Origin: Candidatus Micrarchaeota archaeon
GTDB taxonomy: Archaea > Micrarchaeota > Micrarchaeia > Micrarchaeales > CABMGC01
Length of the DNA stretch: 64,000 nt
Direction of reading: 5' to 3'
NCBI GenBank assembly: GCA_046536795.1
Contig: JAWDMB010000001.1
Location: 186,900-250,899 of the forward strand
The notes beneath the pieces were generated by a model. The model was not told where the DNA came from, ran no database searches, and saw only the letters and a program-made list of their open reading frames with translations. A program made the position numbers and the translations under genes. How positions within the stretch are numbered: the stretch's first letter is position 1; every line of letters starts with the position of its first letter. Of this stretch, positions 919 to 5,602 are shown one piece after another.

Positions 919-2424
919 CTAGAATAGAAGCTCTTTGTTTACCTTATCTGTGTTCCTTTTTTCAACTCTTGAATATGTTTGCTCATCTCTATTTGCAAAA
1001 ATCTTTGCTACTTTTATTATATTCGGATATTTTTCAGAAAGTCTATTTAGCATCGCCAGAGCAATGCGCCTATACTCTGGATGTGCTTCCTTTGTAGACC
1101 TGTTCTCTATAATGTAAATCGCTTCACCAAGCCCCATGTGCATTCTCATTTTTGCGCTAGTTGCAAGAGGCATTAGGAGTTTTGCCTCATCTGTGAAACC
1201 CATTTCGCTAAGCTTTCTTCTTGCATCTGCAACTTCGCTTAAAGTTTGCATTATAGATTCAAACAGTTTACTTGTGATTATCTCTTTCGGCAGGTAAATA
1301 ATACTATCATCTATGAAGTAATTTTTAATTGTATCGCGGTGCCTCTGTAAATCCCTTAGTGAACCTACGCTTATATCAAAATCAAATAAAATAGAACCAA
1401 TGCCAAAGACTGTGCTGTTCAAAGCATCATATTTGCCTTGTCTTTCGCTCGTTAAACGTTCAATGTAATTTAATACATTTTCCTTGCTTATATTGGCGAT
1501 ATGTGCTATTTCTTCAAGGAGTGTGTCTTCGTTGATGCCATAAATTTCAACCCTCTCTTCGTCAAAGCTCTTTATTATAGGCTTTCTGAACGTTTGGTTT
1601 ACCTTTCTAGTATTATTAAAATACGCGGTCTCGAATGGGTCCGGGTCAAGATGCCTTGAAATAGAAGGCAGGTTTTCAGATATAACCTGCTTTAAGCCTT
1701 TTCCCATTATGTTGCAAGTTCTGTCATTCTCTGCTAGGAGTTTCTTTGTTATATTCTCAAGAGTTTTTGCATTAGTTGAAAGAAAAACAACCGTTTCCAT
1801 ACCCATTGGAAGAAGGCCACGAACAAGATCCCTTGCGGTGGGCTCTATTACTGTTTTAATATATTCGCTATCGGGTTCATTTTTATTCTCTTTTGTGTAC
1901 TGCTCCTTTAATATTTCCACCATTTCATTGAATGCTGATTTATAAATATTCAAGAGTTTGTTAGCCGCACTTATAAAGGTAGACAGCGCTTCTTCGTTTT
2001 CTTTAATACTTTCTGGTATATAAAGCTCGCTAAACTCAACGTACCTTGTTGACCTCTCTTGTGAAGCTAAAAATCGCTCATCATGTATACGAAGTGCAAC
2101 CCATATGGGTGCAACTATAGCTATAAGTGTATGAACCTGCTCAAGTACGTTGTTGTGGCCTAATTGATTGACTATTTCATCAAGCGCCTGTCTCGCCTTT
2201 TCAATTAGGTTCTCGTTACTTAGATAGCTATCACTTTTTCTAATAACTCTTTTGAGAAGGGTCTCTCCTTCTTTCGGATTTATCCTGCTAGCATTGCTTA
2301 TCTCGACGAATGCTTGGCTTTCGGGCTCAGGCTCTATCTTATAATAAATTATTGCTAACCCACCATACTCATAAAGCCTATAATGCTCTCCTTCACTCAA
2401 TTTAAAAAGGATATCCCCCTGCAT
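919..2424 (-). CDS. thyX: FAD-dependent thymidylate synthase, tandem two-domain type
   Basis: QERSTRY, ARDLVRGLLP, RDLQRHR and AHPEYR motifs; about twice the length of single-domain ThyX. Confidence 0.8.
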   Translation of the reverse strand: MQGDILFKLSEGEHYRLYEYGGLAIIYYKIEPEPESQAFVEISNASRINPKEGETLLKRVIRKSDSYLSNENLIEKARQALDEIVNQLGHNNVLEQVHTLIAIVAPIWVALRIHDERFLASQERSTRYVEFSELYIPESIKENEEALSTFISAANKLLNIYKSAFNEMVEILKEQYTKENKNEPDSEYIKTVIEPTARDLVRGLLPMGMETVVFLSTNAKTLENITKKLLAENDRTCNIMGKGLKQVISENLPSISRHLDPDPFETAYFNNTRKVNQTFRKPIIKSFDEERVEIYGINEDTLLEEIAHIANISKENVLNYIERLTSERQGKYDALNSTVFGIGSILFDFDISVGSLRDLQRHRDTIKNYFIDDSIIYLPKEIITSKLFESIMQTLSEVADARRKLSEMGFTDEAKLLMPLATSAKMRMHMGLGEAIYIIENRSTKEAHPEYRRIALAMLNRLSEKYPNIIKVAKIFANRDEQTYSRVEKRNTDKVNKELLF

Positions 2425-3176: not shown

Positions 3177-3275
3177 GCGGGGGTGGCGGAGCCTGGTCAA
3201 ACGCGCAGGACTGAGGATTTTATCAGAACTCCTGTAGCTTTAGAGCTTGCGTGAGTTCAAATCTCACCCCCCGCA
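3177..3275 (+). tRNA. tRNA-Leu(GAG) with 12-nt intron at 37/38 (3217-3228)
   Basis: Acceptor GCGGGGG/CCCCCGC-A; anticodon stem CAGGA/TCCTG; long variable arm; BHB helix CTGA/TCAG. Confidence 0.93.
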
Positions 3276-4628: not shown

Positions 4629-4826
4629 ATGATGATACCAGTGAGATGTTTCTCATGTGGTCAGGTAATTGGCAACAAATGGGAAAAATTTAAAGCAAGA
4701 GTGGATAACGGAGAAGACCCAGAGAAGGTATTAGATGACCTCGGAGTGAAGAGATATTGTTGCAGGCGCATGCTAATATCGCATGTTGACCTAATAGATG
4801 AGATAATCGATTATGGTAGGAAATGA
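4629..4826 (+). CDS. rpoN: RNA polymerase subunit N (Rpo10)
   Basis: IPVRCFSCG and RYCCRRML motifs. Confidence 0.97.
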
Positions 4827-4871
4827 AAAGCGATAAAGATAAAAAATAATAGAGACAAAATATTGAATGTC

Positions 4872-4971
4872 GGGGTCGTCTGCTAGCCTGGTTAGGCTCT
4901 GTGCTTAGGGGGCACATGACCCGAGATTAAACGGGAATTCAAAATGTCTCATGAAAATCTCGGCGACCCCG
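4872..4971 (+). tRNA. tRNA-Pro with anticodon AGG and two introns (53/54: 4926-4937; 59/60: 4944-4957)
   Basis: Acceptor GGGGTCG/CGACCCC; anticodon arm TGTGC-TTAGGGG-GCACA; T stem CCGAG/CTCGG. Removing two BHB-like introns restores the TTCAAAT loop. Occupies the usual archaeal tRNA-Pro slot after rpoN. Confidence 0.85.
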
Positions 4972-4987
4972 AAAAAAAGGTGTATAA

Positions 4988-5602
4988 ATGGCGGATGAAT
5001 TGCTTATAGACCAAGCAACCTATCTAGAAGCTGGAGTACACATAGGTACAAAGGTAAAGACGCCCGGAATGAAAAGATTTATTTACAAGATTAGGGAAGA
5101 TGGTCTTTATCTTCTAGACCTGCCAGAGATAGATAGAAGAATAAGGCTTGCGGCTAAGATGCTTGCTAGATATGATGAGAAGGAAATTGTTGTTACCGCA
5201 TCAAGAATTTATGCTATAGCAGCAGCTTCAAAGTTTGCCGAGATAACTAAAACAAGACTTTTGCAAGGTAGAATCATGCCGGGGGTGTTTACAAATCCAA
5301 ACAGAGATGACTTTATAGAGCCGGCTATCGTGCTTGTTAGCGATACGAGAAACGAAAAGCAGGCTGTAAAAGAGGCAAGCAAGACAAACATACCTGTTAT
5401 AGCTCTTTGTGATACTGATAATTGGATAAAGTTTGTCGATCTTATAATACCATGCAACAACAAAGGAAGGCGCTCTCTAGCTGTAGTATATTATTTGCTA
5501 GCAAGGGAATTCTTAAAGGAGAAAGGTATAATAAAATCTAATGATGAGTTTAATTATAAGATCTCAGATTTCGAGGCAAAGGTGGAGATGAAGACTAAAT
5601 AG
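4988..5602 (+). CDS. rps2: Ribosomal protein uS2
   Basis: YLEAGVHIGTK, IPVIALCDTDN, DLIIPCNNKGRRSL. Confidence 0.97.
   Translation: MADELLIDQATYLEAGVHIGTKVKTPGMKRFIYKIREDGLYLLDLPEIDRRIRLAAKMLARYDEKEIVVTASRIYAIAAASKFAEITKTRLLQGRIMPGVFTNPNRDDFIEPAIVLVSDTRNEKQAVKEASKTNIPVIALCDTDNWIKFVDLIIPCNNKGRRSLAVVYYLLAREFLKEKGIIKSNDEFNYKISDFEAKVEMKTK

What the first reader, a model, noticed from the sequence alone, without database searches (positions are those of the whole stretch)
4900..4916. Archaeal tRNA-Pro with an A34 anticodon (AGG)
Seen: perfect stem TGTGC/GCACA closing the 7-nt loop TT-AGG-GG, in the conserved tRNA-Pro position after rpoN. Established: archaea almost never use A34 tRNAs and lack known TadA/ADAT2-3 wobble deaminases; GGG is expected for CCU/CCC. 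Inference: either unmodified A34 wobbling or an unrecognised A34-to-I activity. The D-arm is also odd (C9, U10-U25, C26), so this tRNA deviates in several places.
Basis: partly seen in the sequence, partly recalled or inferred. Interest (0 to 1): 0.72.

Follow-up and report, generated by a model that had tools for sequence, protein, structure and literature searches.

The report
Family-wide A-wobble archaeal proline tRNA
This is a real, two-intron proline tRNA gene of a tiny archaeon whose anticodon starts with A instead of the usual G, a swap fixed across one whole family; it likely works without conversion to inosine, and the same oddity was reported in 2011 in other ultrasmall archaea.

Summary
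Confirmed. The 94%-complete genome has Pro(UGG) and Pro(CGG), no Pro(GGG); this is its only A34 tRNA of 45. An AGG pattern matches 105 of 118 genomes of its Micrarchaeales family and 0 of 129 in the sister family; the GGG pattern matches 0 of 118 and 101 of 129. G34 is likely ancestral. No TadA/CDA-, ADAR- or amidohydrolase-type deaminase was found in the genome, and none tracks the swap. CCC use is unchanged. Position 38 changes with the anticodon. Best reading: unmodified A34 reads CCU and CCC, as shown for engineered Pro(AGG) in bacteria; the modification state is untested. The odd D-arm is shared with G34 relatives. Pro(AGG) replacing GGG was published for ARMAN-4/-5 (2011), and this scan noted it several times on other genomes. 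New member of a known kind.

The parts
4872..4925 (+). tRNA-Pro exon 1 (positions 1-53): acceptor 5' strand, D-arm with C9, U10.U25, C26, anticodon arm, variable loop, T-stem 5' strand
   Evidence: boundaries from relatives lacking the first intron
4907..4909 (+). Anticodon AGG (A34 G35 G36), then G37 (4910) and G38 (4911); U32 at 4905
   Evidence: no other letter listed in DNA or RNA contigs
4926..4937 (+). Intron 1 at 53/54 (12 nt); predicted bulge-helix-bulge, central helix 4920-4923 with 4932-4935
   Evidence: sequence; central helix fully paired in 31 of 33 family copies with this intron
4938..4943 (+). Exon 2, T-loop positions 54-59
4944..4957 (+). Intron 2 at 59/60 (14 nt); predicted bulge-helix-bulge, central helix 4938-4941 with 4952-4955
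   Evidence: sequence; central helix fully paired in 92 of 92 family copies with this intron
4958..4971 (+). Exon 3 (positions 60-73): T-stem and acceptor 3' strands, G73; CCA not encoded
4629..4826 (+). rpoN (RNA polymerase subunit N), upstream neighbour that marks the conserved locus
   Evidence: PF01194, E 8.7e-34
4988..5602 (+). rps2 (ribosomal protein S2), downstream neighbour
   Evidence: PF00318, E 3.9e-23

Best explanation
The gene is the family's orthologue of the rpoN-linked tRNA-Pro(GGG) with G34 replaced by A34, and its spliced product likely keeps an unmodified adenosine that would read both CCU and CCC. Shown: the gene, its locus, the family-wide swap, no Pro(GGG) found, no recognisable wobble deaminase, normal CCC use. 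Inferred: the two introns are cut one after the other at bulge-helix-bulge motifs (both use exon 2) by the encoded endonuclease; the tRNA is charged with proline because G35/G36, not base 34, are the main anticodon identity (recalled, not tested); two strong G-C pairs at codon positions 1-2 tolerate an A34.C mismatch; the change at 38 retunes the loop; Pro(UGG), probably under-modified because Elp3 is missing, may give back-up.
For: AGG pattern in 105 of 118 family genomes, GGG pattern in 0 of 118; sister family 0 of 129 and 101 of 129. All 18 matches among 172 genomes of other orders are GGG. G000: no PF00383, PF14437, PF02137 or PF01979 hit and no HxE...PCxxC protein among 2608 ORFs. PF00383 is patchy, 9 of 24 against 9 of 15 genomes; of 7 such proteins classified none reached the TadA cut-off (best 73.8 bits of 150). 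G000 uses 597 CCC and 2723 CCU, with no proline-specific shift between 20 + 20 windows (logit -0.66 against -0.55, p = 0.31). In E. coli an orthogonal tRNA(AGG) without inosine read CCU at 12.9% and CCC at 10.3%, and the paper cites the same for a Salmonella A34 proline tRNA (PMC11066159, passages); E. coli proL-AGG grew like wild type (bioRxiv 10.64898/2026.05.15.725136, passages). Splicing endonuclease PF01974 present.
Against: No mature tRNA was seen. RNA-library contigs covering 4907 (3 of 4 runs) keep both introns, so they are precursor or DNA and say nothing on modification. Unchanged CCC use fits inosine equally well. The functional precedents are bacterial. The genome is about 6% incomplete. 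Archaea do have a tRNA adenosine deaminase whose gene a 2021 review lists as unidentified (m1A57 to m1I57; PMC7912444, passages), so a missing Pfam hit does not prove a missing activity.
Confidence: 0.62

Rival explanations
1. Division of labour: unmodified A34 reads mainly CCU, and CCC is read chiefly by tRNA-Pro(UGG) with an unmodified, superwobbling U34.
For: Elp3 (TIGR01211) reaches its cut-off in 0 of 25 family and 0 of 15 sister-family genomes, but in the 1 genome of a third family. A review states that A34/G34 tRNAs can be lost when U34 stays unmodified (PMC5041475, passage).
Against: Elp3 is missing in the GGG-keeping sister family too, so it is permissive at most. All three Pro tRNAs are kept. 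Bacterial tests show A34 Pro reads CCC nearly as well as CCU. Other U34 enzymes were not searched.
Confidence: 0.2
2. A34 is converted to inosine by an enzyme outside the TadA/ADAT, ADAR and amidohydrolase families, giving eukaryote-like I34 decoding.
For: The clean replacement of G34 by A34 resembles the eukaryotic pattern, as Fujishima 2011 remarked. CCC is not depleted. An archaeal tRNA deaminase was still unidentified in 2021.
Against: Only 1 of 45 tRNAs would be its substrate. Of 56 proteins shared with one family genome and weak or absent in about 1.5 sister genomes, none bears a deaminase motif; the 4 tested more widely also occur in the sister family (14, 13, 6 and 14 of 15). The known archaeal route acts on m1A and yields m1I, which would block pairing (inference).
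Confidence: 0.15
3. The gene is an assembly error, or a silent copy beside an unassembled Pro(GGG).
For: The genome is a 94%-complete assembly; standard tRNA finders miss the gene; no spliced product was seen.
Against: Same base in 105 of 118 genomes, GGG in 0 of 118; contigs of 4 DNA runs agree; stems and splice helices are conserved while intron letters vary.
Confidence: 0.03

Closest known systems
tRNA-Pro(AGG) and tRNA-Leu(AAG) of ARMAN-4 and ARMAN-5 (Fujishima et al. 2011, PMC3239211; passages read, supplement not)
   Same: Ultrasmall archaea with A34 tRNA-Pro and no G34 synonym; Ile(UAU) without TiaS, as here.
   Different: A different lineage and two genomes there; here fixed in at least 105 genomes of a Micrarchaeales family, with Leu still GAG and two T-arm introns. 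Likely an independent origin.
[quoted passage not shown] 1C legend)
   Same: Same intron positions; the same paper describes a weak D-arm in Pro(CGG) and Pro(UGG).
   Different: G34 instead of A34; the sister-family copies examined have U38 in 20 of 20.
Engineered unmodified tRNA(AGG): orthogonal tRNA in E. coli (PMC11066159), E. coli proL G34A (bioRxiv 10.64898/2026.05.15.725136), Salmonella mutant (Chen et al. 2002, seen only as cited there)
   Same: A34 in the proline box without inosine, reading CCU and CCC, no growth cost.
   Different: Laboratory constructs in bacteria; this is a natural, fixed state whose modification is untested.
Eukaryotic tRNA-Pro(IGG) made by ADAT2/3; bacterial tRNA-Arg(ICG) made by TadA
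   Same: Gene encodes A34 and the G34 isoacceptor is absent.
   Different: No CDA-fold enzyme found in this genome, a single A34 tRNA, and Arg is read by GCG.

Membership tests
tRNA-Pro | Cloverleaf with paired acceptor, anticodon and T stems and an NGG anticodon in a 7-nt loop | tested here: met
   ARAGORN calls tRNA-Pro(agg) on the spliced form
tRNA-Pro | Charged with proline and used in translation | not testable with these tools
   A ProRS-like ORF was spotted by motif only (C2:53290-54744); no charging data
Archaeal tRNA with non-canonical BHB introns | Introns absent in some relatives, with 4-bp central helix and 3-nt bulges | tested here: met
   Among 100 family-type loci 26 have both introns, 66 only 59/60, 8 only 53/54; helices paired in 31 of 33 and 92 of 92
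Archaeal tRNA with non-canonical BHB introns | Splicing endonuclease encoded and splicing observed | tested here: inconclusive
   PF01974 in a 392-aa frame; no spliced joint in 4 RNA runs
ARMAN-4/-5-type A34 replacement | A34 tRNA present and G34 synonym absent | tested here: met
TadA/ADAT I34 system | CDA-fold tRNA deaminase (HxE...PCxxC) in the genome | tested here: not met
   genome 93.87% complete
TadA/ADAT I34 system | Inosine at position 34 of the mature tRNA | tested here: inconclusive
   Only unspliced contigs cover the site, all with A

The most novel reading that the evidence does not exclude
A whole family of DPANN archaea, and several other lineages independently, make I34 on tRNA-Pro with a wobble deaminase unrelated to TadA/ADAT, overturning the rule that archaea lack wobble inosine.
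Probability: 0.13. Interest if true: 0.85.

Novelty: new member of a known kind. Interest (0 to 1): 0.42.

Why it matters
Reviews still state that archaea have no A34 tRNA genes (PMC11066159, PMC4959769), and GtRNAdb holds 3 among 10,517 archaeal tRNAs. A fixed swap in over 100 genomes, beside a sister family that kept G34, is a natural experiment on why A34 tRNAs are rare. It suggests A34 is tolerated long-term in the proline box with no change in codon use, with a coupled change at position 38. One tRNA-seq run on a family member would settle the mechanism. The phenomenon itself was published in 2011, which caps the surprise.

Tried and rejected
ARAGORN on the window and Rfam on 4700-5100 and on the genome missed the gene; relaxed genome-wide ARAGORN gave mostly noise. 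A hidden intron in the anticodon arm that would restore GGG: rejected, the arm is a perfect 5-bp stem with a 7-nt loop and is colinear with sister-family GGG copies. D-arm oddity as linked to A34: rejected. Codon-usage signature: none; family effect on CCC against CCU -0.16 +/- 0.12, like other boxes; CCC-C is under-used alike in all 4 genomes (0.63-0.87 of expected). Kin are not independent, so this is one evolutionary contrast. RNA runs: 3 of 4 cover the site, unspliced, uninformative. Gene-content profiling for a family-specific enzyme: 56 candidates from G000 against one family contig (772 kb), one whole sister genome and 440 kb of another; 8 scanned in Pfam, 4 searched in 41 genomes, none family-specific; 52 were not tested more widely, and a second family genome was not compared, so this test is incomplete. 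The sigma-70 promoter scan does not suit archaea. PMC13520502 and PMC8784108 (passages) hold nothing on A34 tRNAs.

Full report
Observation. The sequence at 4900-4916 is as described: TGTGC, TT-AGG-GG, GCACA, with A34 at 4907. It belongs to a tRNA gene at 4872-4971 (+), between rpoN and rps2 in the rpoD-rpl18e-rpl13-rps9-rpoN-rps2 cluster. The genome (G000) has 759,833 bases in 5 contigs and is rated 93.87% complete. Records bearing the same tRNA type are mostly labelled Micrarchaeota by their depositors.

Anatomy. The gene escapes ARAGORN and Rfam because 33 nt lie where the 7-nt T-loop should be. Relatives lacking one or other insert fix the boundaries: intron 1 at 53/54 (4926-4937), exon 2 TTCAAA (4938-4943), intron 2 at 59/60 (4944-4957). 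Each can form a bulge-helix-bulge motif. Among 100 family-type loci the central helix is fully paired in 31 of 33 copies of intron 1 and 92 of 92 of intron 2. Both motifs use exon 2, so splicing is inferred to be sequential. With the introns removed in a script, ARAGORN calls tRNA-Pro(agg). A splicing endonuclease is encoded. The same two intron positions were described for ARMAN-2 Pro(GGG) (PMC3239211, passages).

Is A34 real? Contigs of 4 of 4 DNA runs cover the site and list no other letter at 4907. At the same locus 22 of 29 readable loci had AGG (all own family, G000 included) and 7 had GGG (all sister family); 1 of 30 loci did not hold the tRNA. Across the order, an AGG pattern matched G000 and 104 of 117 other family genomes, 0 of 1 in a third family and 0 of 129 in the sister family. 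The same pattern with G34 matched 0 of 118, 0 of 1 and 101 of 129. In 172 genomes of other orders a pattern open to both letters matched 18, all GGG; the other 154 were missed by the pattern and tell nothing. G34 is therefore likely ancestral and A34 a single fixed change at the base of this family.

tRNA set. Reading anticodons by eye from the Rfam hits and a motif scan gives 45 tRNA genes (42 of 45 Rfam matches, this gene, Ser(CGA) and Arg(CCU)). Proline has UGG (C3:39021), CGG (C2:63112, minus) and AGG; no GGG stem-loop in a tRNA context was found. This is the only A34 gene. Arg(CCG) was not found.

D-arm. C9/U10 stands in 17 of 20 family and 17 of 20 sister-family copies and in this genome's Pro(CGG); a weak D-arm in ARMAN-2 proline tRNAs was published. 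It is a lineage trait, unrelated to A34. What does change with A34 is base 38: U38 in 20 of 20 sister GGG copies, against A38 in 80, C38 in 11, G38 in 9 and U38 in 0 of 100 family-type AGG copies; this genome has G38. In 17 scorable AGG copies from other lineages A38 is in 12 and U38 in 2 (2 of 19 not scored). The 32-38 pair is known to tune strong-box tRNAs (PMC5041475, passage); that this change compensates for A34 is my inference.

Enzymes. G000 has no hit to PF00383, PF14437, PF02137 or PF01979 and no deaminase motif among 2608 ORFs. PF00383 occurs in 9 of 24 family and 9 of 15 sister genomes; 7 of these proteins classified as cytidine deaminases, a ComEB-like protein, or weak TadA-like matches at half the cut-off, one in each family. 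A limited gene-content comparison gave 56 candidates; the 4 tested widely are shared with the sister family. Trm5 is present in 5 of 5. Elp3 reaches its cut-off in 1 of 41 genomes, that of the third family, so U34 is probably under-modified in both families. Against over-reading these absences: an archaeal m1A57 deaminase was listed as unidentified in 2021 (PMC7912444, passages).

Codon use. G000 has CCU 2723, CCC 597, CCA 3457, CCG 882 in 577 ORFs; the C share of 0.18 lies within the range of other four-codon boxes (Val 0.14, Ser 0.15, Leu 0.21, Ala 0.23). In 21 family and 20 sister windows around rpoN the family effect on CCC against CCU was -0.16 +/- 0.12, like Thr and Val; a second measure on 20 + 20 windows gave p = 0.31. 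CCC is therefore read well enough by something. This does not separate A from I.

Direct evidence on modification is lacking. RNA-library contigs from 3 of 4 runs span the anticodon with A, but keep the introns and may be precursor or DNA.

Mechanism. I favour unmodified A34 reading CCU and CCC (0.62). An orthogonal tRNA(AGG) without inosine read CCU at 12.9% and CCC at 10.3% in E. coli, which its authors link to two G-C pairs at codon positions 1-2 (PMC11066159, passages), and an E. coli proL G34A strain grew normally (bioRxiv 10.64898/2026.05.15.725136, passages). Rivals: CCC left to a superwobbling Pro(UGG) (0.20), an unknown deaminase (0.15), artefact (0.03).

Wider spread. Of 5 such genomes checked, 3 small ones showed AGG without GGG and 2 larger ones showed both, so some are extra copies or misbinned contigs.

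Known status. Fujishima et al. 2011 reported tRNA-Pro(AGG) and tRNA-Leu(AAG) replacing their G34 forms in ARMAN-4 and -5 (the supplement was not read and may list more). Four literature searches showed no paper on the family-wide swap in Micrarchaeales, but the library lacks most subscription journals. This scan has noted the same feature on at least five other windows; my counts were made before that look-up. Verdict: real, a new member of a known kind, interest 0.42.

Noticed in passing
window 3177-3275 (+) (G000:C1:190076-190174): tRNA-Leu(GAG) with an intron after the anticodon, upstream of rpl18e; missed by ARAGORN on the window. It keeps G34, unlike ARMAN-4/-5.
   Followed up: partly
G000:C1:153720-153809 (-): tRNA-Ile(UAU) with no TiaS domain (PF08489) in 5 of 5 genomes, as published for ARMAN lineages.
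   Followed up: partly
G000 genome-wide: tRNA-Arg(CCG) not found; CGG is the rarest Arg codon (87 of 210,670 codons). May be unassembled, multi-intron or lost.
   Followed up: partly
41 genomes of the order: Elp3 is below cut-off in both large families (0 of 40) but present in the third family: U34 tRNAs may be under-modified while C34 isoacceptors are kept.
   Followed up: partly
window 4971; G000:C3:39021 and C2:63112: All three proline tRNAs have G, not A, after C72 as discriminator.
   Followed up: no
window 919-2424 (-): 501-aa ThyX-like protein with two Thy1 (PF02511) stretches, about twice the usual length (usual length recalled).
   Followed up: no
G000:C1:184130-184810 (+), just upstream of the window: 226-aa protein with no Pfam family, found in 35 of 41 genomes of the order.
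   Followed up: partly
L062, L152, L147: Records labelled as bacteria carry the Micrarchaeales-type tRNA-Pro(AGG), and one labelled Methanosarcinales has the same tRNA as a Woesearchaeota record (L144): likely misbinned contigs.
   Followed up: no
L059 (G422), L094 (G423): Two larger archaeal genomes hold Pro(AGG) beside Pro(GGG); the L094 copy has a poorly paired acceptor stem.
   Followed up: partly
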